Of a DNA stretch of 64,000 bases, positions 27,267-63,436 are shown piece after piece. A model generated the notes under the pieces. It saw only the letters and a list, made by a program, of their open reading frames with translations, was not told the DNA's origin and did no database searches. The translations under genes were made by a program, and so were the position numbers. The DNA is from a virus, in IMG/VR virus record IMGVR_UViG_3300029286_001586, positions 1 through 64,000 of that record. One strand, 5' to 3'. Position 1 is the first letter of the stretch. The number at the start of each line of letters is the position of its first letter.

Positions 27267-27692
27267 ATGAAAGAATCACTTTTAGACTCGATTGTATATA
27301 GAAACATGTTCGACATAACGGAGCTTTTGCTCGACCTTTGTAATATAAACATAGGTAATGCGGAAAAAAGGAATAGAATAAAACAAGCGTTCTTGATGAT
27401 AACCCGCAGACAGAAAAACAGAGTTATTACAGGTTTCCTTCAAATAAACAATACAAAAAGATTAGATTTTCTTACAGGCTGTTTTAGAGAAAATACAGAC
27501 CTACTTAAAAAACGAGTAGCCATAATAGAAGATTTGAGTGAAGATTTGAGAACCAAAATTTGCGAGGAGACAGATAAATACACAAACGAAGTAATCGCTA
27601 AAGTTGAAAGTATATGGAAAGAAAAAGGATTGGATTTGCTGACCGAAACACAAATGAAAGAAGAAATTTCGTGTTGGAAATCCTGGAAATAG
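27267..27692 (+). CDS. Hypothetical protein
   Basis: ORF with SD between MTP and chaperone. Confidence 0.6.
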   Translation: MKESLLDSIVYRNMFDITELLLDLCNINIGNAEKRNRIKQAFLMITRRQKNRVITGFLQINNTKRLDFLTGCFRENTDLLKKRVAIIEDLSEDLRTKICEETDKYTNEVIAKVESIWKEKGLDLLTETQMKEEISCWKSWK

Positions 27693-27707
27693 GAAAAGGA
27701 GAAGAAA

Positions 27708-28346
27708 ATGTTTAAGAAAGCCGAAAAGTTCAATTTTGAAATCATGCTCAATGGCAAGTATGATGCCGAAGGAAAAGCAGCCGTAACAAAGATATGCTTT
27801 ATTCCAAAGAGCATTAGGGTGGAGACTAATGAAAAAGAAACATACCAAAAAGAAGTAGAGAAGATACTTCCAGAAGAAAGAACCAAGATAAACAAGATGT
27901 TTTATGATGCTATTTTGGTTCTACCACAAGAAGATATCATAGCTACATATATAGCTGAGAACGAAAATAAATATGTAGAAATAGCTCGTTCTTCTGTTAT
28001 TGCTGATGGAAAAACTGATGATGAATTTAAACAAGCAATCAAAATGAAAGTTGATAAAATAAAGGAATCAGAAAAAGAAAAACTCGCTGGTAAAGATGTT
28101 ATTAAGCTCGTAGCAGAAATAGCAGACAGGCGCACAGATTTATATACTATGACTAAAGCAATAACAAAAACTTTGCTTTATGTATTTAGCGAGTGCATTA
28201 GATATCAGGACGATACCAGTAAAAAAGTATTTAAAAATGCAGATGATGTTGAGGATTCGATAACAGAGAACGATATGACCATGCTCATAGACAAGTGGAG
28301 AGAATTTCGTGAGGGTATGGAAGAAGCTGACGCAAAAAACTCGTAA
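27708..28346 (+). CDS. Tail assembly chaperone (G-like)
   Basis: Ends ...AKNS on slippery heptamer A AAA AAC. Confidence 0.7.
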   Translation: MFKKAEKFNFEIMLNGKYDAEGKAAVTKICFIPKSIRVETNEKETYQKEVEKILPEERTKINKMFYDAILVLPQEDIIATYIAENENKYVEIARSSVIADGKTDDEFKQAIKMKVDKIKESEKEKLAGKDVIKLVAEIADRRTDLYTMTKAITKTLLYVFSECIRYQDDTSKKVFKNADDVEDSITENDMTMLIDKWREFREGMEEADAKNS

Positions 28347-50048: not shown

Positions 50049-52742
50049 TTATTTTCCTCCTTTTAATTTGCATTTATCACTACACTTAATTTTCCATCCC
50101 AAACTTTTTATGAACGGACAAGCAAAGTGGTAAGCATCTCCGCTATAAACGGTTTTTACACAACTTTCAAGACCAAGTAAAAGATTTCCGTTCCTAGTAG
50201 ATGTTAATTTGGGGTCAATATTCTGGGTCCACTTAGTCAATAATTCAACACAGTCTTCTTCAGATACTTCCTGGTCTTTGTAGTACCCCGCCAAAACAAG
50301 AGTTGCCCTGTTTCTCGAACCCTTGACTTTTATTCCGTTCTCCAGTAAGTCCTTGACACAAACAGGAACGTAATCAGGTACGATTTTAAGCGTTGTTCTT
50401 TTATATTCTTTGGTCTTGTAATCTCTGAGCATATCATTAGCCCACTTTTCAGCCACGTCTATTTTAGACGCTACTCCAATTTTCTCCTTTTTCTTGGGCG
50501 AAACTGCGAGAGCCAAAATGTTGGTAATGTCTTCTCCTATCATTTTAATAGGAATAGTTATTTTAAATAGCCCCGATTTCATATTGGGGGTATTTTGAAT
50601 CCTGAGCATCTTTCTATTACCTGTTGCATTACAAAGGGTCTGTAACTTGAATTTGGTTCTTAATTTATTGTGGATATGTTCTATTTTCTTATGAAGGTCT
50701 GAAGATGGCTTAAAACCAAACACAGCTTCATCAACTATAATATGGAAACCCTTTGAATTTCCGCACCACATAGGTTTTCCGTTTCTTCTAACAAATATTA
50801 CACCAGTAGAAACTTCGCAACAATATACATTGTCATTATAAGGAACAAGTCCATATCCCCATCCAGTTCCAAGCGTGTTTTTTATATTATATTGATGTTT
50901 TGTTGATTTATTATAGGTTACTAACCACATATTTCCATCTTTTGTGACATTAGAAGCATATCCTAATCGCAAACATAGTTCATTTATATTATCAGCTAGT
51001 TCTTTTTGTATTCCTGGATATAAAACATTTTTGTTTTTGTCTCCATCCCCTAAATAAAAAGCATCGAAAAGTATTTTGAGCTGTCTTTTGGAAAGATTTA
51101 ATATATTTCTATCTATTTTTTTACACAAAACATTACAAAGCTGTTTATCATAAATCATTAAATAATTACAACCATTCGGATGCTTACTATATTTTACTTT
51201 ACTTCCAAAAATTCTTTTGGCTGAATTCCAAATTTTTTTAAAATTTTTCGTGTCTTTTTGACATATTGTTATTTCACAACTTCCTGCGTTTTTCCCTCTC
51301 TTACTTTTTCTCTTTCTGCTATATCCTTCGGATAACCAATATCCCAAAAATTCAAGCCAATCATCCATTTTAATTTTTTTGGCTGGTATTTTATATTTAA
51401 TTTTTCCTCCCCCGCATATTTTATAAGTTTCGGGCAAAACAAAATATTTTTGTTCTTTCCCTGTATGTTCTATTCCTCTATTAAAAATTAAATTAGACCT
51501 ATTTATTAGTTCTTTTATTGGTCGAAGTTCAAATTCTTTTTTATTATCTTTTTGGATTTGATGGTACATATTATGGTCTGGAGTAACTAGAATATCTATA
51601 AAACTAGATTTAAGATTATATAAATGTCCTTTGTATGGGAATTTTTGTATTGTTTGGGGGTATTCGTATTTTGTTGTGTTTTTGTGTTTAACAGCAACTT
51701 TATCTGTCGTTTGTAAATCTTTAAAATATTTCCACCCATTTTGAGTTAAAATTTCTGTGTCTTTGCTATAACATCCAGAAAATGATAGGTGTATCATATT
51801 ATCGGGAATATTGAGTCTAAACAGTTCATCTAGTATGTAGATAGCTTCTGCTTGTGCCTGACTTAAATCATCGACATCATCAACATCGAGGTCAAAGAAC
51901 AAGGGCATGAGGAAATCTTCGCCATATACTTTTTCAGCGTTCCTGAATTTCTGGACTGACATATATAACTCAGACCCACTATGTTCCCTAACAAAATGAG
52001 GAATTTGATTAGTCTTTAGTCTTAACCATTTACTCCACTTTTTCTCATTTTCAGAGTTCATGTAGGAGAAACATACTTCTTTATACATATAGTCTTTATT
52101 GTCTATTTCGTCCTGGGGCTTAGAAAACAGAGTATAAAACAAATCATCACTAAGAAGCGGTTTAATCCTGTCAGTGAACGCTTTTAGTCTTTCAAGCAAG
52201 TATTCAATATCGTAGTCTTCGGCATAGTCTTCCTTCAATTTGCATATCTTTTTCTTCTCGGTCGGCTTTGCAAAGTAGTAACCAACTTTGTTCCCAATCG
52301 GCACATTCTTATTTTTAGCAAGCAATACTTCATAAACTTGGTCTGATTTTATCTTATTAGCCTGATATGCGTTTAGTGAGCGATTTATTTCCCTGTGCTG
52401 AATGAATTCATTGAGTTCCATTTTACCACTCATGATAAGTTCTCTGAGAGTGAGATATCGTTCTCTTATTTTGTCATATTCCTTATTAAGAATGTCCCAA
52501 ATAGAGTCCCTGATAAAATCTTTACCAAACTTTTCAATCCCCCTGCTTCTAAAACTTACACCAGACATTTTAATCTTATTATCTTCAGTAACACGAATGT
52601 AATTCTTAGGCAAAATATTACAAAAGAATTTATAGTAAGCTAGGTCACAGTCTATTCCTTTTGGTAAAAAAGCGTTTATCTCTTTAAGCAAAGATTCGCC
52701 CTCTAGTTTATACTTTTTTATGTTTTTTTCTGTATTCAGCAT
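50049..52742 (-). CDS. PolB C-terminal part (KNY motif and thumb) fused to AEP primase and a PriL-like domain; intein-containing
   Basis: PKNY, SGVSFRSRG, YLLERL; FFDLDVD, FSG|SKGFH, RMLR-like KMLRI, GSRNRA, C-terminal Cys cluster. Confidence 0.75.
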   Translation of the reverse strand: MLNTEKNIKKYKLEGESLLKEINAFLPKGIDCDLAYYKFFCNILPKNYIRVTEDNKIKMSGVSFRSRGIEKFGKDFIRDSIWDILNKEYDKIRERYLTLRELIMSGKMELNEFIQHREINRSLNAYQANKIKSDQVYEVLLAKNKNVPIGNKVGYYFAKPTEKKKICKLKEDYAEDYDIEYLLERLKAFTDRIKPLLSDDLFYTLFSKPQDEIDNKDYMYKEVCFSYMNSENEKKWSKWLRLKTNQIPHFVREHSGSELYMSVQKFRNAEKVYGEDFLMPLFFDLDVDDVDDLSQAQAEAIYILDELFRLNIPDNMIHLSFSGCYSKDTEILTQNGWKYFKDLQTTDKVAVKHKNTTKYEYPQTIQKFPYKGHLYNLKSSFIDILVTPDHNMYHQIQKDNKKEFELRPIKELINRSNLIFNRGIEHTGKEQKYFVLPETYKICGGGKIKYKIPAKKIKMDDWLEFLGYWLSEGYSRKRKSKRGKNAGSCEITICQKDTKNFKKIWNSAKRIFGSKVKYSKHPNGCNYLMIYDKQLCNVLCKKIDRNILNLSKRQLKILFDAFYLGDGDKNKNVLYPGIQKELADNINELCLRLGYASNVTKDGNMWLVTYNKSTKHQYNIKNTLGTGWGYGLVPYNDNVYCCEVSTGVIFVRRNGKPMWCGNSKGFHIIVDEAVFGFKPSSDLHKKIEHIHNKLRTKFKLQTLCNATGNRKMLRIQNTPNMKSGLFKITIPIKMIGEDITNILALAVSPKKKEKIGVASKIDVAEKWANDMLRDYKTKEYKRTTLKIVPDYVPVCVKDLLENGIKVKGSRNRATLVLAGYYKDQEVSEEDCVELLTKWTQNIDPKLTSTRNGNLLLGLESCVKTVYSGDAYHFACPFIKSLGWKIKCSDKCKLKGGK
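50757..51773 (-). mobile_element. Intein (339 aa) with LAGLIDADG endonuclease, inserted in the primase SGxKGFH motif
   Basis: Begins CYSKDTEILT, VTPDH block B, FLGYWLSEG and FYLGDG, ends WCGN followed by Ser. Confidence 0.9.
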
Positions 52743-52781
52743 GATATTGCTTATACCTTTTAAGTTGTTTTTTATTTGGAA

Positions 52782-54308
52782 CTATTTTTCCTGTGATTGC
52801 CATGATTCTTTTGTTATATATACCCCGTCCGTGTCCCGCTCCAGTGTTATATATCCTTTCTTTGTTAGAAAATCGCACATTGTTTGCAGCGTTTCTCGTC
52901 CTATCTTTGTGACTCTGCTTGCTTCTTCCATGTCGTTCCATTGAAACACATTACTGCCCAACAGTCCATAGAGTGAGTTGATTAATATTTTAGTTGATTG
53001 TTCCTCTGCTTTATATCTCTCTAGTCCTGTTTCTTTGGCTTGCGCTTTCATACTGAATCTTAGGTCTGTAAGAGTTTTAAGCAGTTTAGGAAACACTTTG
53101 AATTTGTCTGATTTGGGACAGACATTATAATTCAACATGACTGATGGATAAAGCGAATTAACATCTAAATGATAGACATGTTCAAATATTCCTCTCTGTT
53201 CGGCTCCGACCATAGCACCTTCAAAATCTATTTTTTCCTGCTTGATAGGGATTGCATGTCCTTGTCTGTAATATTCCCTGACAAACATTCCTGTCATTTT
53301 CGTGGAAGAACTAGCAATACACACTTTCTCATAGTTCATAGGAAGCATTTGTGTCTGGTAGAAGTCTTTTTGTGTCAGTAATTTTGATAGATGGTCAACT
53401 GCCAAACAATCGTCCATACAATGCTTTATAATCAACTGCTTATCTGTTTTAAGAAATTCTGCTATCTTAGTTTTATCAATATTCATATCCTCGAACTTCT
53501 TACCAAATCGCTCTGATACATCATCGAGTTTATATGTTTCAAGTTCTCTGTAAATAGCATCCCAGGCACGAACAGAATAATATAGGTCAACACAATGCCG
53601 ACCCCAAATCTTAGGGACCATTATTTCCACGCTTTGATTATCACCCATACGAATATGGGTCTGGAACATATACATGTCGGAATTATTGCGTCCGATATTC
53701 GGTCTGATATCATGAACTGCTGCTCTATTCATGAGTAATTGAAAGTCGAAACTGAATCCATTATAGCTTTCAATAACATCAGGATTCAATCTCTTAATAA
53801 CTTCAAAAAAATGCTCGATGATAAAATTCTCATCACCGATTATGTAATCGCTTTTATCTCCGCAAGTATAACAGATAATTAATATCTCTGAATCAGTAAG
53901 CGATAGACCCGTTGACTCAATATTGAATTGTAAGCGTTTCAGGTCTTCATATTCCATTCCCTTGAATAGAGTCTTTCCTGTTTGAATCATGTACTGAGTA
54001 TTCATATCCGAAATTGTAAAGTGTTGGGGTTGTGCCAAACCATTGTTCTGTCTCAATGTTTTCATCAGGGGAAAAAACAATCGGGGTTCAATATAAGCCA
54101 AGATGTTATATCCGTCTCCCTGAAGTTCTTCATATTCTTTTTGTCCAATACGACTTAGCTGATTTTTAGAAGAAAGATAAAGAAATGGCTTAAACGCTTC
54201 TTTAAAAGTTTTACCATTCCTAAAGATAGTAGTTGCAGTTCCATTATTTACTTCAATAGATACTATATCCGTGGTCTCATTTTTTCCGTATATTAAAATA
54301 TCGTTCAG
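52782..54308 (-). CDS. polB: Family B DNA polymerase, N-terminal part (exonuclease plus motifs A, B, C); probable CTG start at 54308
   Basis: YNGFSFD, DVNSLYPS, KILINSLYG, DTDG; frame is open 69 codons upstream of the tracked start. Confidence 0.85.
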   Translation of the reverse strand: MNDILIYGKNETTDIVSIEVNNGTATTIFRNGKTFKEAFKPFLYLSSKNQLSRIGQKEYEELQGDGYNILAYIEPRLFFPLMKTLRQNNGLAQPQHFTISDMNTQYMIQTGKTLFKGMEYEDLKRLQFNIESTGLSLTDSEILIICYTCGDKSDYIIGDENFIIEHFFEVIKRLNPDVIESYNGFSFDFQLLMNRAAVHDIRPNIGRNNSDMYMFQTHIRMGDNQSVEIMVPKIWGRHCVDLYYSVRAWDAIYRELETYKLDDVSERFGKKFEDMNIDKTKIAEFLKTDKQLIIKHCMDDCLAVDHLSKLLTQKDFYQTQMLPMNYEKVCIASSSTKMTGMFVREYYRQGHAIPIKQEKIDFEGAMVGAEQRGIFEHVYHLDVNSLYPSVMLNYNVCPKSDKFKVFPKLLKTLTDLRFSMKAQAKETGLERYKAEEQSTKILINSLYGLLGSNVFQWNDMEEASRVTKIGRETLQTMCDFLTKKGYITLERDTDGVYITKESWQSQEK

Positions 54309-54598
54309 AATTTTACTCCATAACTTATTAAAGATTTTGTGTAATTATTTCGTGGATTGGAATCAACTCGATGGAAACACTCATGATAAAAATTTAGATT
54401 ATCAGAACCCAAATATATAGAATAAAGAACTTTATCTGGATTAAAACCTTGTAATGATGCTCTGCTTATATAAGACATTACATCGCATTTTATCTTTATA
54501 TCAGAACCAACTTCACCACGAACTCCAGATATGAACTGACCATTATCTTCCCCAATATAAAGGGCTATTAAGAATATAATCAATAGTATGTGCTTCAT
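54305..54598 (-). CDS. Hypothetical protein with signal peptide
   Basis: Hydrophobic N-terminus; directly downstream of promoter copy 4. Confidence 0.6.
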   Translation of the reverse strand: MKHILLIIFLIALYIGEDNGQFISGVRGEVGSDIKIKCDVMSYISRASLQGFNPDKVLYSIYLGSDNLNFYHECFHRVDSNPRNNYTKSLISYGVKF

Positions 54599-54603
54599 AT
54601 ATC

Positions 54604-54633
54604 ATTATACCACATAATAGCCCCAAAGTTGAC
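54604..54633 (-). promoter_or_regulatory. Conserved phage promoter, copy 4
   Basis: GTCAACTT-N13-TGGTATAAT; ATG 5 nt downstream. Confidence 0.7.
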
Positions 54634-55403
54634 TACAAATTAGTCGATGGTTTTAATATCTGGAGATTTTTACCGACTTTGCACCAACCACCACAGTCCT
54701 GACATTGCGCTCTCTTATATTTCGTGGTGGCATTAATTGAAAATCCTCTTGATTGCATATTACCAGACCCGCACTTGGGACATACTAATTTATTAGTGTA
54801 CATTCCTAAATTTGGGTGAGTATTCATCCAGGGAAGAAGTCTGAGATATATCTTTTCAAGAAGAATAACATCATTTGCGTTATACTGCTTCATCTTTTTC
54901 CACGCTTCGAGTTTTCCAGCCATACAATCCAGCCATAACTTAAATCCGCCAGTTTCGACTTTAACTCCCAAATCTAAATACTTGCCGAGGTCATTTAAGC
55001 TGTTGCTATTAAAAGCAAAGTTTTTTTTTGCTACTATCTTAGTATCAACTGTTTTGAATGGGGCTGGAGGTTTCATTTTATGAAATGAAAATCTTGAATT
55101 ACTTTTTTTAATATCAAAATCTGCCCCGTTATGAGCAACTACAATATCTGCTTCATCAAAGAGCTTCCAAATGTCCTCTACCAACGCTTTATCGCTTTCT
55201 TTGTCTTTTTTATAAAGCGGATAATCACAGAGTCCTTTGGAAAACACTTTCTCTCCCAACCACTTCGCACTGAAACTCAAAATATGCCATTCGTCTTTAT
55301 TCTCAATAATATGGGTTTCCCAGGGATGCGACCACCAATAGCCGAGATTAGGACTGGTCTCAATATCGAATATCAATATTTTGGACTCATTATCTTTCTT
55401 CAT
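54633..55403 (-). CDS. DEDDy 3'-5' exonuclease (RNase_H_2/YprB-like) with C-terminal zinc ribbon
   Basis: FDIETSP, HNGADFD, YNAND, CPKCG...CQDCG. Confidence 0.85.
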   Translation of the reverse strand: MKKDNESKILIFDIETSPNLGYWWSHPWETHIIENKDEWHILSFSAKWLGEKVFSKGLCDYPLYKKDKESDKALVEDIWKLFDEADIVVAHNGADFDIKKSNSRFSFHKMKPPAPFKTVDTKIVAKKNFAFNSNSLNDLGKYLDLGVKVETGGFKLWLDCMAGKLEAWKKMKQYNANDVILLEKIYLRLLPWMNTHPNLGMYTNKLVCPKCGSGNMQSRGFSINATTKYKRAQCQDCGGWCKVGKNLQILKPSTNL

Positions 55404-57125: not shown

Positions 57126-57947
57126 TTATAAATCCTTTATTAGATGATATTGTTTCTGGAAATTATGTTCCATTTGCAGTCCTGATGGTCCGTTCCTATT
57201 CTTTTTAACATCAACAGTAAGCACATCATCAACACTCCAGATAAAAAAGACTCTATGTGCGTCATATTCTTTGCTCCCACTTCCCTTTAGGTCCGATAGT
57301 TTGAAGTTCAATATAGTACGTTTTGATGCTTCTCTATTCATTGCAGTAACTGCGACAACAGGAATATTATATGTTTTTGTTATTTGCAACAAACCTCTCA
57401 TAATAGACGACAGTGCTTCATGAGTATTTTCTGAAGAACTCATTTCGGGCATAATATCAATATAATCTAACATTAATATGTTTGGTTTAAGTTCTTCAAT
57501 GACGAGTTCTATCTTTTCCATAGGAATATTTTCGTCAATAACAAACAGAGGAAGCTCTATTAGTTCAGCTTTCGCTTTTTTTATTTTGGCTTTATCTATA
57601 TCTTTAGTTATTTTTTTCGTCTTAAATATCATTGAATTGAGTTGTGTTTTATTTGAGAGCATATTAATACCAATTTCGTCCTGAAACACTTCATAAGTAA
57701 TTAAAAGAACTTTTTTGTTCTGCTCGGCGATATTCATAGCGAGTTGCAATAAAAACGTCGATTTTCCGCTGCCAGGCGAACCCGCAATTAACGTCAATTC
57801 TCTATTACCAAATCCTCCCAGCATGGTATCAATCTGTTTAAACCCGCTTTTAAGACCGACTTCTCCTGACTCAACACGTTTCATAACTCCTTCAGCAGAA
57901 GTTAATATCGAATTCATATTTTTTAGATAATTTGGTTCCTTGTTCAT
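57126..57947 (-). CDS. dnaB: DnaB-like SF4 helicase (RecA domain only)
   Basis: GSPGSGKST, LDYI, NRE, SDLKGSG..E.DA, KKNRNG. Confidence 0.85.
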   Translation of the reverse strand: MNKEPNYLKNMNSILTSAEGVMKRVESGEVGLKSGFKQIDTMLGGFGNRELTLIAGSPGSGKSTFLLQLAMNIAEQNKKVLLITYEVFQDEIGINMLSNKTQLNSMIFKTKKITKDIDKAKIKKAKAELIELPLFVIDENIPMEKIELVIEELKPNILMLDYIDIMPEMSSSENTHEALSSIMRGLLQITKTYNIPVVAVTAMNREASKRTILNFKLSDLKGSGSKEYDAHRVFFIWSVDDVLTVDVKKNRNGPSGLQMEHNFQKQYHLIKDL

Positions 57948-60512: not shown

Positions 60513-60514
60513 AA

Positions 60515-60640
60515 ATTTTAGAGAGCGTCTATGGCTTTGCAAAGTTGCGTCTCTGTGGAGTCGAACCACTGAAACTGCTTTGATAGCCCCCAAAACAACC
60601 CAGACCTTGCTGAGTCCTCACCATAAACGCTCTTTAAAAT
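60515..60640 (-). ncRNA. Putative structured RNA with a 20-bp closing stem and tRNA-like T-loop
   Basis: Inverted repeat 60515-60534/60621-60640; internal GTGG-TTCGACT-CCAC hairpin. Confidence 0.5.
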
Positions 60641-60645
60641 TGTCG

Positions 60646-60716
60646 AAGCGGAGGGCGGATTTGCACCGCCGTCTCAGGGATATGAACCCCGCAAGGAACT
60701 ACTCCTCCACTCCGCT
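60646..60716 (-). tRNA. tRNA-Met (CAT), initiator-like
   Basis: AGCGGAG/CTCCGCT acceptor stem, CGGGG-TTCATAT-CCCTG anticodon arm, GGCGG-TGCAAAT-CCGCC T arm; no encoded CCA. Confidence 0.8.
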
Positions 60717-60766
60717 ATGGTGCTTGGATTTTTTAAAAGAACCCTAGCATAAAACTTTAATAGAGC

Positions 60767-61048
60767 ATTGATACAAGACCAACACAACTTTTAAGACCCC
60801 CCTCTACTCAGAGACCCTCGTTGTCTCATATCAAGATGGCTGCCGATACTTGTCTTTTACTGTCCTTTAGGCACAAGTCCTATCAGAAGGGCTAAGTATC
60901 ATACCTCACATTTTTAAATCATGTCTGTCACATGTGGGTTTAATTCTCACAGGAGTAATTACTTCCTGCCTAACAAGTTCCCCGACACCAGACACAAATA
61001 AATGCTGTCTTGGTTGCATTTAAGGAGCCACCCCACCACAGCATCAAC
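60767..61048 (-). ncRNA. Putative ~280-nt multibranch structured RNA
   Basis: ORF-free; closing helix GTTGATGC/GTATCAAT plus several internal stems. Confidence 0.45.
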
Positions 61049-61623
61049 TAACCTTCAAACGAATTGTCCCACCAGTTGTTGCCGTCCTTCGGACATGTAA
61101 CTACTCTTTTGGTCCCATTTGAAACTTCTTTTGCAAACATCTTGGACCCGCAATCAGGACAAACTGTTGGCTCCTCATCTCCGAGTTCTTTGTTAAGCGT
61201 TCTTCCTTTTTTGTACTTGGAAGCTCCTCCCGCAGATTTCTTCGCACCTGACCATGCTTTCTTCGCTGGGGGCGGTGGAGGCGTCGGTTCCTCGTCTTCA
61301 ACTGGTTCTTGTTCAACAGGAGTTGCTACAACAGCACCAAGACCCTCTATTGCGTCATTGAGAACCTTTATTACCTCTTTAACGCTGCTACCTCTGATAA
61401 CAACTCTTGTTCTTGCCTTTGCCGTATCATCAACATCCAACCATTTCTCTATCTCAACTGCGTTTGTTTCTACCACTTCTACACCTTCTTTCTTTGTTAT
61501 TTTAGCTCCAGGGTCGGCAAAAAATTCCTTGCTCTCTTTTTCCATTTCCTCATCAAATTTCGCTTGGTCCTCAACATTTACTTCTTTCTTGGTCTTCTTT
61601 TTCGTGCTAAATCCTTCAGCCAT
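61048..61623 (-). CDS. Acidic, Pro-rich protein with C-terminal zinc ribbon
   Basis: Strong SD; CPDCG...CP. Confidence 0.7.
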   Translation of the reverse strand: MAEGFSTKKKTKKEVNVEDQAKFDEEMEKESKEFFADPGAKITKKEGVEVVETNAVEIEKWLDVDDTAKARTRVVIRGSSVKEVIKVLNDAIEGLGAVVATPVEQEPVEDEEPTPPPPPAKKAWSGAKKSAGGASKYKKGRTLNKELGDEEPTVCPDCGSKMFAKEVSNGTKRVVTCPKDGNNWWDNSFEG

Positions 61624-61683
61624 ATTTCACCTTCTTTCTTAAATTATCTTACACCCAATATAAATTGTTCAACTACCTGTAAT

Positions 61684-61713
61684 ATTATACCATTTAATGT
61701 CTTATAAGTGTCC
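61684..61713 (-). promoter_or_regulatory. Conserved phage promoter, copy 6
   Basis: GGACACTT-N13-TGGTATAAT, inside the upstream ORF. Confidence 0.65.
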
Positions 61714-61855
61714 TTATCTTTAAAGAATTTTTGGTAAGTCCTGGGCGGGACTATTAAAATCGTCGGGTCTTTTTCTTCAAGAATAATATAGGTATGAACC
61801 AATTTATCTATTGTTGATTGTAAATAACATTTGTGCATATCTTTAAGTATATCTG

Positions 61856-62200
61856 TCATATTTTTGTTATTTCAACATTTTCAGAATAGTAGCCATTTGA
61901 AGCTCCGTACCATGATATTGTGACTGCTCCTTTTATCGTTGCAAATTTATAAAATGTCCATGTGTTCGTTCCATCATCTTCATCAAATTTGTTGGATGTT
62001 TCTTCCGCCATAAGCAAAGGTGACCCGATTAAATCTGCCAAATCACCAACTATTTCTTTTATATAAACACTCTCACAACACTCCTGGTCATGATACATTT
62101 TCCATGATGGTCCATTGACTTCTTGAAAAACAATCTCGTCATTTTCTTTATTTACTGTTATGTTTTCTAATATTTTTTCTGCCAATGCTTCAATTTTCAT
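61856..62200 (-). CDS. Conserved phage protein (HxQxCCE family)
   Basis: HDQECCESVYI...TWTFYK..T.KG....W.G.SNGYYSE. Confidence 0.75.
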   Translation of the reverse strand: MKIEALAEKILENITVNKENDEIVFQEVNGPSWKMYHDQECCESVYIKEIVGDLADLIGSPLLMAEETSNKFDEDDGTNTWTFYKFATIKGAVTISWYGASNGYYSENVEITKI

Positions 62201-62209
62201 AATTTCCTC

Positions 62210-63436
62210 CTATCCTTTTATTACTGCCATTGGAATTAATTCGTGCAAAATATCGACCAAATCTTCTTGTTCTTTCATAACAACATCAATATCTTTATAT
62301 GCACTTGCAGATTCGTCCAAATCTTTTTTATGTCTCATTCCATGTATTATTCCTTGTTCATTCATTTTATTTATTTCGTCTTCAAGATTAAGTTCTGCAA
62401 TAGCTTTTGTTCTGCCCATCCTTCTTCCTGCACCATGAGAACAACTCATAAAGCTATCTGGGTTTCCTTTCCCACTAACAATATAACTTTTTGTTCCTTG
62501 TGAACCAGGAATTATTCCTATCGTATTCTCTCTCGCAAGCGTTGCTCCTTTTCTATGAATCATTACGTTCTTTCCAAAATGATTTTCTAAAGAAGCATAA
62601 TTATGGGCTATATTTATCATATTTGTTGAATATGCCACAGGTTTGTACTTATCTGGATTATCATCATTAAAACAATCTATAATTCTATCCATCATCAATC
62701 TTCTGTTAGCAAACGCAAAATCCACACAATACTGCATTTCTCGTAAATATGATTGCCCTTCTTCGCTATCTAATGGTAAAAATGCAAGTTCCCATTTCTT
62801 AGGTACTGATGTATGCCATTTTGTGTTTAAATCAACAGCAAGTTTATTATAATGATTTGCAACTTTGAATCCCAGATTTCTGCTTCCGCTATGTATCATT
62901 ATCCAGACATATCCGTCTTGGTCTTTCTGGATTTCTATGAAGTGATTGCCCCCACCAAGCGTACCTATCTGTTTTAATGCGGATTCGTATTCTTGTTTTA
63001 CAATAGGAAAATATTTTTCGTCCCGTTCATCGTGATACATACTAGGCATCAAACTTTCACCCTGTTTTTTCGAGTGGTGACTAAAACCAACAGGAACAAC
63101 GCTTCTAATGCCCCCGTGATAATCTTTTGAACCCCCGAATATCTTCTTAATGGTTTCTTTGTCTAACATTTCTGCTTCGAGCGATGTCTTGACCGCACAC
63201 ATGCCACAGCCTATATCAACTCCAACAGCATTAGGAATAACAACACCTTCGGTAGCTATAACGCCCCCTATTGGCATCCCATATCCTTGATGAGTATCGG
63301 GCATAAGACATACTTGCTTAAACACAAAAGGAAGTCTTGCAAGATTTTTCGCTTGCTCCCACGCTCCTGCTTCTGGTTCATTACACCAAGACTTTATAAC
63401 AACACCGTTTTCCACTTGTTCATATTTCATTACCAC
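62210..63436 (-). CDS. rtcB: RtcB RNA ligase
   Basis: MPDTH.GYG.PIG, VGVDIGCG, GTLGGGNHF, HSGSR, HRKGA, SHGAGR, AYKDI. Confidence 0.95.
   Translation of the reverse strand: MVMKYEQVENGVVIKSWCNEPEAGAWEQAKNLARLPFVFKQVCLMPDTHQGYGMPIGGVIATEGVVIPNAVGVDIGCGMCAVKTSLEAEMLDKETIKKIFGGSKDYHGGIRSVVPVGFSHHSKKQGESLMPSMYHDERDEKYFPIVKQEYESALKQIGTLGGGNHFIEIQKDQDGYVWIMIHSGSRNLGFKVANHYNKLAVDLNTKWHTSVPKKWELAFLPLDSEEGQSYLREMQYCVDFAFANRRLMMDRIIDCFNDDNPDKYKPVAYSTNMINIAHNYASLENHFGKNVMIHRKGATLARENTIGIIPGSQGTKSYIVSGKGNPDSFMSCSHGAGRRMGRTKAIAELNLEDEINKMNEQGIIHGMRHKKDLDESASAYKDIDVVMKEQEDLVDILHELIPMAVIKG

What the first reader, a model, noticed from the sequence alone, without database searches (positions are those of the whole stretch)
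50049..54308. Family B polymerase fused to an AEP primase with a PriL-like tail
The PolB KNY motif and thumb continue without a stop into an AEP domain (FDLD, SG-SKGFH after intein removal) and a GSRN/Cys-rich PriL/PriCT-like domain. This gives either a roughly 1080-aa mature Pol-primase chain or a thumb-primase subunit that completes the polymerase in trans. Phage primases are usually fused to helicases. Here the helicase lacks the DnaB N-terminal domain that normally binds primase, which fits primase being recruited through the polymerase.
Basis: partly seen in the sequence, partly recalled or inferred. Interest (0 to 1): 0.7.

Follow-up and report, generated by a model that had tools for sequence, protein, structure and literature searches.

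The report
Split phage polymerase carrying a primase
A lake-water phage encodes its family B DNA polymerase in two pieces, and the second piece joins the polymerase thumb to an archaeal/eukaryotic-type primase interrupted by an intein; this rare arrangement resembles a compact version of eukaryotic DNA polymerase alpha-primase.

Summary
On the minus strand, 52785-54308 encodes the PolB N-terminal, exonuclease-like, fingers and palm regions, with motifs A, B and C. One in-frame TAG (52782-52784) ends it. ORF 50049-52742 continues in the same frame. It encodes the KxY strand and thumb, an AEP primase, a 339-aa LAGLIDADG intein inside primase motif II, and a four-cysteine PriL-CTD/PriX-like domain.

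Structure predictions and fold searches support each part. Uninterrupted fusions of about 1000-1240 aa exist in metagenomes. Other relatives have separate thumb-primase genes that begin at the same seam; one of them has no PolB N-part within 3 kb upstream.

The TAG is identical in contigs from four lake metagenome runs, and TAG is an ordinary stop in this phage. My best reading (0.6) is a two-subunit polymerase-primase that assembles across the palm. Read-through to a 1080-aa chain remains possible.

The main caveat is that the primase motif III aspartate is a cysteine in this clade, so primase activity is unproven.

This scan already found C-terminal PolB-primase fusions on other DNA (e1-3361237, e1-5951743). 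The published GP55 fusion has the opposite domain order. I rate this a new variant of a known kind, with moderate interest.

The parts
52782..54308 (-). ORF-A: PolB N-terminal domain, exonuclease-like domain (ExoI reads NIE, not DIE), fingers and palm with motifs A (53142-53165), B (52965-52991) and C (52824-52838). 508 aa from CTG 54308, ending in TAG.
   Evidence: Pfam PF00136 E 5e-17 and PF03104 E 6e-10. 31% identity over 96% of its length to the Salinibacter phage PolB. The CTG aligns with Met1 of homologues and has GGAG 7 nt upstream.
52782..52784 (-). In-frame TAG separating the two polymerase ORFs.
   Evidence: Sequence. Identical in contigs of 4 metagenome runs. TAG ends 14 of 55 genes in this phage. 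No suppressor tRNA was found.
52710..52802 (-). 31 extra codons relative to the closest homologues, between motif C and the LPKG/KxY strand. They contain the TAG and the ORF-B ATG (52742).
   Evidence: Alignment A1. RNA fold z-score -1.3. No Rfam match. No flanking target-site duplication. Unique in the window and absent from IMG/VR.
52098..52742 (-). ORF-B residues 1-215: N-terminal helix, palm strands with KxY (52590-52610) and the PolB thumb.
   Evidence: Pfam PF00136 profile positions 247-423. AF2 pLDDT 82; Foldseek to KOD, 9N and Pol alpha at E 8e-9. In the complex model it docks on the motif A strand of ORF-A.
51774..52097 (-). AEP primase N-half: motif I FFDLD (51885-51899) and the first half of motif II, SFSG (51774-51785).
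   Evidence: Alignments A2-A4. Model of homologue P0056 matches PriS and Prim-PolC at Z 12-13.
50757..51773 (-). 339-aa intein with a LAGLIDADG homing endonuclease (Cys324 to Asn662, +1 Ser663).
   Evidence: Precisely absent from P0002, P0055-P0059 at SG|xKGFH. Related to inteins in unrelated host proteins and in Lak phages. Endonuclease domain matches PI-PkoII at E 5e-8. Pfam LAGLIDADG_3 is weak.
50415..50756 (-). AEP primase C-half: SKGFH (50736-50756), the motif III position reading TLC instead of TLD (50598-50639), and KSGLFKI (50559-50579).
   Evidence: Exhaustive search found 407 relatives. The motif III column is D in 67 of 73 rows and C in 5 rows, including four of this clade (P0002, P0055-P0057); the window's own sequence also has Cys.
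50049..50414 (-). PriL-CTD / PriX / PriCT-like helical domain with four family-invariant cysteines and GSRN.
   Evidence: Pfam PF04104 scores 16-18 bits here (below cut-off) but 24.1 and 25.6 bits in homologues P0057 and P0058 (above cut-off). Four Cys are invariant in 73 sequences. VIA matches PriX at Z 7.5 and the PriL Fe-S domain at Z 5.1.
54633..55403 (-). Neighbouring stand-alone DEDD exonuclease ('DNA polymerase exonuclease subunit'), a possible trans proofreader.
   Evidence: PHROG 403 at E 3e-83; Pfam RNase_H_2.
57126..57947 (-). DnaB-type helicase consisting of the C-terminal RecA-like domain only (273 aa).
   Evidence: Pfam DnaB_C at E 7e-42 covering residues 31-269; PHROG 19.

Best explanation
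The locus encodes a two-subunit replicative polymerase-primase.

Subunit 1 (ORF-A, 508 aa, probably started at CTG 54308) holds the N-terminal and exonuclease-like domains, the fingers, and the palm with motifs A, B and C.

Subunit 2 (ORF-B) is made as an 897-aa precursor from ATG 52742. Its intein (residues 324-662) splices itself out and rebuilds primase motif II (SG-SKGFH), giving a 558-aa protein. This protein consists of the last palm strands with KxY, the thumb, an AEP (PriS-like) primase and a four-cysteine PriL-CTD-like domain.

The N-terminal strands of subunit 2 slot into the palm sheet beside the motif A strand of subunit 1 and complete the PolB. The primase hangs from the thumb. 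A primer made on DNA unwound by the DnaB_C-only helicase could then be passed directly to the polymerase active site, as in eukaryotic Pol alpha-primase.

Shown by computation: domain identities, intein boundaries, existence of the fusion family, the recurrent seam, and stability of the TAG in the population.

Inferred: independent translation of ORF-B, assembly, splicing, primase activity and primer hand-off.
For: - Domain identities.
- Natural uninterrupted PolB-AEP-PriCT proteins exist: P0002 (1050 aa, about 55-60% identical), P0058 (1009 aa, contig L091), P0074, P0096, P0111 and P0103.
- Independent thumb-primase ORFs begin at the same seam, just before LPxG...KxY: P0057, P0059, P0083 and P0084.
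- On P0057's contig L089, a 400-nt spacer, a DNA methylase gene and an epimerase gene precede the gene. No PolB N-part lies within 3 kb upstream or 7 kb downstream.
- In another relative (L090) the same fusion is cut at a different place, inside the thumb, by two inserted genes; one reads by its motifs as a cytosine-5 methylase, though no family search was run on it. Fragmented forms therefore persist.
- The TAG and its surroundings are letter-identical in contigs of four lake-water runs, with depth up to 25 and no variants or joints.
- TAG is a normal stop here: 14 of 55 genes end in it, read-through tails are short, and there is no global recoding.
- All PolB catalytic motifs are intact on both pieces.
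- Complex prediction of ORF-A with ORF-B residues 1-225 gave ipSAE 0.61 against a best control of 0.02. That mark was reached by 58 of 80 solved complexes and 2 of 110 mismatched pairs. The runs agree in at least 71% of contacts and partner pLDDT is at least 79. The interface joins ORF-A 368-393 to ORF-B 25-45. Because these are halves of a fold that has been solved many times, this pass shows likeness to PolB rather than proof of binding.
- Split PolBs that work as complexes are documented: PhiKZ DNAP N+C (PMC13648687) and Methanobacteriales PolB (PMC4104785).
- No DnaG/Toprim or second AEP was found in the 74-kb contig.
Against: - The two ORFs share a frame with only one stop and 13 sense codons between them. 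This also fits a recent nonsense mutation or selected read-through.
- The ORF-B ATG has only a weak, distant SD-like AAAGG 13 nt upstream, whereas most genes here have GGAG or AGGA at 6-10 nt.
- ORF-A lacks an ATG, GTG or TTG start at its homologous N-terminus and needs CTG or ATT initiation.
- The closest relatives (P0002, P0003, P0007) are continuous across this seam.
- AEP motif III Asp, which is D in 67 of 73 aligned relatives, is Cys here and in the nearest clade, with no obvious compensating acidic residue. Primase catalysis is therefore uncertain.
- The intein's penultimate residue is Gly, not His.
- The contig is only about 53% complete by CheckV, so another primase could lie elsewhere.
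- There are no expression data or biochemistry.
Confidence: 0.6

Rival explanations
1. The functional product is a single chain of about 1080 aa (after splicing) made by read-through or suppression of the TAG. In this reading the stop tunes the ratio of a truncated core to the full polymerase-primase, or is simply leaky.
For: ORF-A and ORF-B are in the same frame with no other stop. The closest homologues are continuous single chains. The SD before the ORF-B ATG is weak.
Against: TAG is used as a genuine stop by about a quarter of the genes. No suppressor tRNA was found in the 74-kb contig; the only tRNA is tRNA-Met. There is no significant RNA structure (z -1.3) or Rfam element around the stop. 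Relatives have truly separate thumb-primase genes.
Confidence: 0.15
2. The polymerase gene is freshly broken. On this view the nonsense mutation and the lost ATG start are decay in a defective or host-dependent phage, and the pieces do not form a working polymerase.
For: Two irregularities sit in one essential gene: a CTG at the position of the homologues' Met1 and an internal TAG. ExoI has Asn for Asp. Motif III of the primase is Cys.
Against: More than 1400 codons are otherwise open in a 35% GC genome. All PolB polymerase motifs, the AEP DxD and SGxKGFH motifs, the four Cys and the intein splice residues are intact. The ExoI Asn and motif III Cys are shared by diverged relatives, so they are old and conserved rather than decay. 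The same sequence is fixed at depth 11-25 in several samples. The CTG has a good SD and a CTGA overlap with the upstream stop.
Confidence: 0.1
3. The AEP module is no longer a catalytic primase. This rival is not exclusive of the split-subunit model. With motif III Asp changed to Cys, the module would serve as a DNA- or primer-binding or recruitment domain on the thumb, and primers would come from another enzyme or mechanism.
For: Motif III is D in 67 of 73 aligned relatives but C in this clade (ours, P0002, P0055, P0056, P0057). From established knowledge of AEPs, this Asp is a metal ligand needed for catalysis in characterised enzymes. The contig is incomplete.
Against: The Cys is conserved across members that are 37-60% identical. 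DxD, SGxKGFH, the Arg/Lys of the KSG region and the four-Cys domain are all conserved. The intein sits in motif II; from general knowledge, inteins usually persist in functionally constrained sites. No other primase was found in 74 kb.
Confidence: 0.3

Closest known systems
GP55 of Lactococcus phage 1706 ('four-in-one replicase', PolB group HelPrimPolB; PMC12205980, PMC4889955, PMC7544198)
   Same: A phage protein that covalently joins an AEP primase to a proofreading-type family B polymerase. De novo DNA synthesis has been shown experimentally for GP55.
   Different: GP55 has the order SF3 helicase - PrimPol-type AEP - PolB, with the primase N-terminal. Here there is no helicase domain. The AEP is PriS-like, sits C-terminal to the thumb, and is followed by a four-Cys PriL-CTD-like domain. 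The polymerase is split, and the primase carries an intein.
Eukaryotic DNA polymerase alpha-primase (PolB Pol1 + PriS + PriL with Fe-S CTD)
   Same: The same three functional modules are present: a family B polymerase, a PriS-fold catalytic primase and a PriL-CTD-like domain. Fold matches are to human and yeast PriS (Z 12-13) and to the PriL Fe-S domain (Z 5.1). The thumb model also matches Pol alpha.
   Different: Here the modules are joined in one or two polypeptides instead of four subunits. There is no PriL N-terminal domain and no B subunit. Motif III is Cys. Hand-off is inferred only.
AEP-PriCT-MCM primase-helicases of Bacillus phages/prophages (phBC6A51 type; McGeoch and Bell 2005, cited in PMC5862659) and Thermus phage P23-45/P74-26 primases
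   Same: These are the nearest sequence relatives of the primase module: 28-34% identity over 93% of it, with the same DxD, SGxKGFH, KSG and four-Cys pattern.
   Different: In those proteins the module is N-terminal to an MCM (or DnaB) helicase, or stands alone. Here it is C-terminal to a PolB thumb.
Split family B polymerases: PhiKZ DNAP-N/DNAP-C (PMC13648687) and Methanobacteriales PolB (Kelman 1999, via PMC4104785)
   Same: A PolB is encoded as two polypeptides that form one enzyme. For the archaeal case, an origin by faulty excision of a mobile element has been proposed.
   Different: PhiKZ is split within a palm insertion: motif A lies on DNAP-N, while the fingers, motif C and thumb lie on DNAP-C. 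Here the seam lies after motif C and before KxY, and the small subunit carries a primase.
PolpTN2 of Thermococcus plasmid pTN2 (PriS-PriL fusion; PMC3973330, PMC5862659)
   Same: A single chain joins a PriS-like AEP to a PriL-related C-terminal domain in a mobile element.
   Different: It has no PolB part, comes from an archaeal plasmid, and belongs to a different AEP family.

Membership tests
Family B DNA polymerase (PF00136/PF03104) | Polymerase motifs A (DxxSLYPS), B (KxxxNSxYG), C (DTD) and KxY | tested here: met
   DVNSLYPS, KILINSLYG and DTDG lie on ORF-A; KNY lies on ORF-B. Pfam PF00136 at E 5e-17 on ORF-A.
Family B DNA polymerase (PF00136/PF03104) | Thumb/C-terminal palm fold | tested here: met
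   AF2 model of ORF-B residues 1-225 has pLDDT 82. Foldseek top hits are KOD, 9N, Tgo and Pol alpha at E 8e-9, TM 0.61-0.64. Pfam on ORF-B gives 22.1 bits, just under the 23-bit cut-off.
Family B DNA polymerase (PF00136/PF03104) | ExoI DxE metal ligands of the 3'-5' exonuclease | tested here: not met
   ExoI reads FNIES, with Asn for Asp. This is shared with P0002, P0003 and P0007, while more distant relatives have FDIET.
Family B DNA polymerase (PF00136/PF03104) | One continuous polypeptide | tested here: not met
   An in-frame TAG at 52782-52784 is confirmed in contigs of four runs.
Archaeo-eukaryotic primase superfamily (PriS-like, PF01896) | Motif I DxD and motif II SGxGxH | tested here: met
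   FFDLD is present, and SFSG|SKGFH forms across the intein. Both are invariant or nearly invariant in 73 relatives.
Archaeo-eukaryotic primase superfamily (PriS-like, PF01896) | Motif III catalytic Asp | tested here: not met
   The column is D in 67 of 73 relatives. It is Cys in this protein and in P0002, P0055, P0056 and P0057.
Archaeo-eukaryotic primase superfamily (PriS-like, PF01896) | AEP catalytic fold | tested here: met
   Tested on the 52%-identical intein-free homologue P0056 (pLDDT 91). VIA gives Z 13.0 to Prim-PolC (rmsd 3.2, 203 aligned), 13.0 to human PriS and 12.4 to Sso PriS. Foldseek to PriS gives E 2e-5. The family profile hits PriS 1zt2 at E 9e-15.
Archaeo-eukaryotic primase superfamily (PriS-like, PF01896) | Pfam PF01896 above gathering score | tested here: inconclusive
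   There is no hit on the window's protein, because the intein splits the domain. P0002 scores 21.5 bits and P0059 23.9 bits against a cut-off of 26.8. The AEP-MCM relatives carry PF01896.
PriL C-terminal (Fe-S) domain / PriX / PriCT | Sequence match to PF04104 or PF08708 | tested here: inconclusive
   The window scores 16.3-18.3 bits against a cut-off of 22.4, and PriCT_1 scores 13.3 bits. Homologues P0057 (24.1) and P0058 (25.6) pass the cut-off.
PriL C-terminal (Fe-S) domain / PriX / PriCT | Helical fold related to PriL-CTD/PriX | tested here: inconclusive
   The best matches for model residues 274-394 are PriX 5of3_C (Z 7.5, rmsd 5.0, 96 aligned) and yeast PriL Fe-S domain 6di2 (Z 5.1, 98 aligned). 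Fe-S photolyases score about 4.5. For a helical domain these Z values are suggestive, not decisive.
PriL C-terminal (Fe-S) domain / PriX / PriCT | Four cysteine ligands / bound 4Fe-4S cluster | not testable with these tools
   Four Cys are invariant in 73 relatives. The spacing is C-x79-C-x11-C-x3-C here. Metal or cluster binding needs spectroscopy.
Intein with LAGLIDADG homing endonuclease | Cys1, block B TxxH, C-terminal Asn and +1 Ser/Thr/Cys; precise absence from orthologues | tested here: met
   Cys324, TPDH, Asn662 and Ser663 are present. The insert is absent exactly at SG|xKGFH in P0002 and P0055-P0059. Two LAGLIDADG motifs are present. The endonuclease domain matches PI-PkoII at E 5e-8, and there are relatives in many unrelated host proteins.
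Intein with LAGLIDADG homing endonuclease | Penultimate His of block G | tested here: not met
   The intein ends in Gly-Asn. From general knowledge, inteins without this His are known, so splicing is not excluded.
HelPrimPolB / GP55-type replicase | SF3 helicase and PrimPol domains N-terminal to PolB | tested here: not met
   No helicase domain was found on either ORF, and the primase is C-terminal to the thumb. This protein is not a member.

The most novel reading that the evidence does not exclude
This phage lineage has independently built a minimal analogue of eukaryotic Pol alpha-primase. A PriS-like primase and a PriL-CTD-like Fe-S domain are tethered to the PolB thumb, so primers are made and handed to the polymerase within one particle.

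The seam between motif C and KxY would act as a natural module boundary. Across it, a 'thumb-primase' cassette can exist as a separate, exchangeable subunit. An unusual Cys would replace the third catalytic carboxylate of the primase.
Probability: 0.4. Interest if true: 0.7.

Novelty: new variant of a known kind. Interest (0 to 1): 0.55.

Why it matters
Primase-to-polymerase hand-off is a central and still actively studied step of replication. In eukaryotes it needs the four-subunit Pol alpha-primase.

This locus offers a bacterial-virus enzyme with the same three modules (PolB, PriS and PriL-CTD-like) in only one or two chains. That would be a small, tractable model for hand-off. It could also be useful as a self-priming, possibly proofreading DNA synthesis enzyme.

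The family also shows how an essential replicase tolerates repeated fragmentation. Examples are a split after motif C, a split in the thumb by inserted genes, and inteins in the primase and in the polymerase. This bears on how multi-subunit replicases arise from single-chain ones, or the reverse.

The conserved Asp-to-Cys change at a catalytic metal site of the primase is a testable oddity.

Tried and rejected
Contigs of P0002, P0059, P0083 and P0084 could not be fetched, so whether those split forms have an adjacent PolB N-part is unknown.
- IMG/VR scans with P0001, P0002 and alignment A1 found no other fused locus. A2 was too divergent to use as a query.
- Among 160 AEP-PriCT loci fetched, only L089, L090 and L091 are PolB-linked. 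About ten IMG/VR phages have a related PolB gene 2-4 kb downstream of a separate AEP gene.
- Global TAG recoding is rejected.
- No suppressor tRNA was found in the contig.
- Explanations of the 93-nt extra segment as a group I intron, a structured read-through signal or a bypass element are rejected as unsupported. Fold z-score is -1.3, there is only a 4-bp hairpin around the UAG, and there is no Rfam hit.
- A mobile mini-element origin is unsupported. There are no flanking direct repeats and no second copy in the window or in IMG/VR.
- The 31-aa basic out-of-frame mini-ORF noted by another first-stage note has no SD. I regard it as incidental, but did not test it further.
- No RNA holder was listed for this stretch, so nothing can be said about expression.
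- No intein-less or insert-less allele appeared as a joint in the four runs laid. These were contigs only, and contigs drop rare variants.
- The last protein search showed no other ~500-aa N-half among the best 120 PolB relatives. The list was saturated by ~736-aa bacterial PolBs.
- The tree of the primase module (quick method) places PolB-linked forms in two or three groups. One origin versus several is not resolved.
- PHROG searches of the structural genes gave almost nothing, so phage taxonomy and host remain unknown.

Full report
**Source and layout.** The window is the first 64 kb of a 74-kb linear IMG/VR phage contig from lake-water metagenomes, estimated at about 53% complete. The finding lies in the leftward replication module. 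That module also holds the following genes:
- a DnaB_C-only helicase (57126-57947)
- a stand-alone DEDD exonuclease subunit (54633-55403)
- a UvsX-like recombinase
- a Cas4-like nuclease
- RtcB
- further out on the contig, a clamp-loader-like ATPase and a sigma factor

**Observation.** A stop-to-stop frame at 52785-54344 on the minus strand encodes a family B polymerase up to and including motif C. Pfam gives PF00136 at E 5e-17 and PF03104 at E 6e-10. Identity to Salinibacter phage PolBs is 31% over 96% of the length.

The frame ends at a TAG (52782-52784). The next ORF (ATG 52742 to 50049, 897 aa, P0001) is in the same frame, 13 codons further on.

No ATG, GTG or TTG stands at the homologous N-terminus of ORF-A. 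The CTG at 54308 aligns exactly with Met1 of the relatives. It has GGAG 7 nt upstream and overlaps the upstream stop as CTGA.

P0001 contains the following features:
- KNY at residues 47-49
- FFDLD at 282-286
- SFSG followed directly by Cys324
- a 339-aa insert ending at Asn662
- SKGFH from residue 663
- a Cys-rich tail

Spliced ORF-B alone would be 558 aa.

**Is the N-terminus of ORF-B a PolB thumb?** Yes.
- Pfam PF00136 aligns profile positions 247-423 to residues 14-173.
- tblastn links the region to the C-terminus of the continuous 801-aa Salinibacter phage PolB.
- Three closer homologues run straight through this region.
- An AF2 model of residues 1-225 (pLDDT 82) finds only family B polymerases at the top of a PDB Foldseek search: KOD, 9N, Tgo and Pol alpha, at E 8e-9 and TM 0.61-0.64 over about 200 columns.

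**Is the rest an AEP with a PriL-like tail?** Yes, with one caveat described in the next section.
- An exhaustive HMMER search with the post-intein part found 407 relatives. Most are AEP-PriCT modules N-terminal to MCM helicases (about 1000 aa, carrying PF01896 and PF00493) or stand-alone proteins of about 340 aa.
- The family profile hits S. solfataricus PriS at E 9e-15.
- The AF2 model of the 52%-identical, intein-free homologue P0056 (pLDDT 91, pTM 0.81) matches Prim-PolC at Z 13.0, human PriS at Z 13.0 and Sso PriS at Z 12.4 over residues 50-275.
- The tail of that model (residues 274-394) matches PriX best (Z 7.5, 96 aligned) and then the yeast PriL Fe-S domain (Z 5.1).
- Pfam PF04104 is below cut-off in the window's protein but above it in P0057 and P0058.
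- Four cysteines are invariant across 73 relatives.
- PriCT, PriX and PriL-CTD are regarded as homologous (PMC5862659).

**Caveat on the primase active site.** The motif III aspartate is D in 67 of 73 aligned relatives. It is Cys in the window's protein and in its nearest clade (P0002, P0055, P0056, P0057). More distant PolB-linked members keep Asp. I found no conserved compensating acidic residue. The substitution is old and conserved rather than decay, but whether the domain still makes primers cannot be decided here.

**Intein.** The 339-aa insert (50757-51773) is absent exactly between SG and xKGFH in all intein-free relatives. It starts with Cys, has TPDH, and ends in Asn followed by Ser. 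It carries two LAGLIDADG motifs. It resembles inteins in ribonucleotide reductases, dehydratases, RNA polymerase and terminases, in Lak phages, and the PI-PkoII endonuclease (E 5e-8). The penultimate residue is Gly rather than His.

**The fusion family.** Continuous PolB-AEP-PriCT proteins exist:
- P0002 (1050 aa)
- P0003 (cut by its contig end inside FFDLD)
- P0058 (1009 aa, contig L091)
- P0074, P0096 and P0111 (1194-1241 aa)
- P0103 (1585 aa, with an intein in the polymerase)

The family is rare. No other fused locus was found in IMG/VR, and only three of 160 fetched AEP loci are PolB-linked.

The nearest plain PolBs are bacterial and phage enzymes of about 736 aa, at 32-37% identity.

A quick tree of the primase module puts PolB-linked forms in two or three groups. 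One versus several origins is unresolved.

This scan has already reported such C-terminal fusions on other DNA (e1-3361237, e1-5951743).

**The split.** Relative to P0002, P0003 and P0007, the window has 31 extra codons (52710-52802) between motif C and the LPKG strand. They contain the TAG and the ORF-B ATG.

The stop is not an assembly error. Two runs hold the whole 4.4-kb stretch without a difference, at depths 11 and 25. Two further runs hold short contigs across the TAG, again identical.

TAG is an ordinary stop in this phage (14 of 55 genes). There is no global recoding and no suppressor tRNA.

The segment has no significant RNA structure, no Rfam match, no flanking repeats and no second copy.

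Four diverged relatives (P0057, P0059, P0083, P0084) are thumb-AEP-PriCT proteins whose N-termini fall at this same seam. On P0057's contig the gene is preceded by a 400-nt spacer, a DNA methylase gene and an epimerase gene, with no PolB N-part within 3 kb upstream or 7 kb downstream.

In L090 the fusion is cut elsewhere, inside the thumb, by two inserted genes. One encodes a small signal-peptide-like protein; the other reads by its motifs as a cytosine-5 methylase, though no family search was run on it.

The gene family is therefore repeatedly fragmented, and the site after motif C is a recurrent seam.

**Assembly.** A complex prediction of ORF-A with ORF-B residues 1-225 scored ipSAE 0.61 against a best control of 0.02. 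That mark was reached by 58 of 80 solved complexes and 2 of 110 mismatched pairs. Runs agree in at least 71% of contacts and partner pLDDT is at least 79.

In the model, the ORF-B strands at residues 25-45 pair with the motif A strand of ORF-A (residues 368-393). These are halves of a fold solved many times, so the pass reflects likeness to PolB and is not independent proof of binding.

Working split PolBs are documented in PhiKZ (PMC13648687) and Methanobacteriales (PMC4104785).

**Mechanism proposed.**
1. ORF-A is translated from CTG 54308 and stops at the TAG.
2. ORF-B is translated from ATG 52742, possibly by re-initiation since its SD is weak.
3. The intein splices out and restores motif II.
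4. ORF-B completes the palm of ORF-A and supplies the thumb.
5. The tethered primase and its PriL-CTD-like domain make a primer and pass it to the polymerase.
6. The neighbouring DEDD exonuclease may proofread, because ExoI of the PolB reads NIE.

All of these steps are inferred. Only the domain identities and gene structures are shown.

**Rivals.**
- Read-through to a single chain (0.15).
- Recent inactivation of the gene (0.1).
- A catalytically silent primase module (0.3). This is not exclusive of the split model.

**Comparison with known systems.** The published phage primase-PolB fusion (GP55, HelPrimPolB) has helicase and PrimPol domains N-terminal to PolB (PMC12205980, PMC4889955, PMC7544198). 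This protein fails that architecture and is not a member.

Functionally it resembles Pol alpha-primase. By descent, its primase belongs with the phage AEP-PriCT(-MCM) group.

Searches of the held literature for a PolB with a C-terminal AEP found nothing. That is not proof that none exists.

**Verdict.** It is a new variant of a known kind, already seen elsewhere by this scan in its unsplit form. What this window adds is the two-piece form, the primase intein and the motif III Cys.

Noticed in passing
window 53907-53927 and 54633-55403 (- strand): PolB ExoI reads FNIES (Asn for the first metal-binding Asp), as in the nearest relatives P0002, P0003 and P0007; more distant relatives keep FDIET. 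A complete stand-alone DEDD exonuclease (PHROG 403, 'DNA polymerase exonuclease subunit') is encoded two genes upstream and may proofread in trans.
   Followed up: partly
window 54305-54311 (- strand): ORF-A has no ATG, GTG or TTG at its homologous N-terminus. The CTG at 54308 aligns with Met1 of homologues, has GGAG 7 nt upstream, and overlaps the upstream gene's stop as CTGA.
   Followed up: partly
L090:6055-6971: In a related phage contig (Ga0209777_10001869) the same PolB-primase gene is split inside the thumb by two inserted genes. One is a 101-aa signal-peptide-like ORF. The other is a 204-aa protein whose motifs (FCG, PPC, ENP) read as a cytosine-5 DNA methyltransferase; no family search was run on it.
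   Followed up: partly
window 27267-28346 (+ strand): A second gene pair is separated only by an in-frame TAG: 27267-27692 and 27708-28346 would read through as one 378-aa frame. It lies upstream of a 1030-aa gene that I guess, from its size and position only, to be the tape measure. It could be a chance arrangement or a read-through chaperone-like pair. PHROGs gave no hits for any of these genes.
   Followed up: no
window 60514-63436 (- strand): RtcB RNA ligase (62210-63436, Pfam E 2e-111) lies near the only tRNA (tRNA-Met, 60645-60716), with ORF-free stretches around it that other first-stage notes flag as structured RNAs. This suggests a tRNA-repair module.
   Followed up: no
P0074 versus P0083/P0084 and window 52700-52745: The continuous 1194-aa homologue P0074 has a long linker after motif C. 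Its sequence (IMLNYKE...) resembles the N-termini of the split forms P0083 and P0084 and the start of ORF-B (MLNTEK...). The long linker may therefore be ancestral rather than an insertion. The similarity covers only a few residues.
   Followed up: no
window 52708-52803 (- strand, other frame): A 31-aa highly basic mini-ORF overlaps the seam in another frame. It has no SD and is probably incidental.
   Followed up: no
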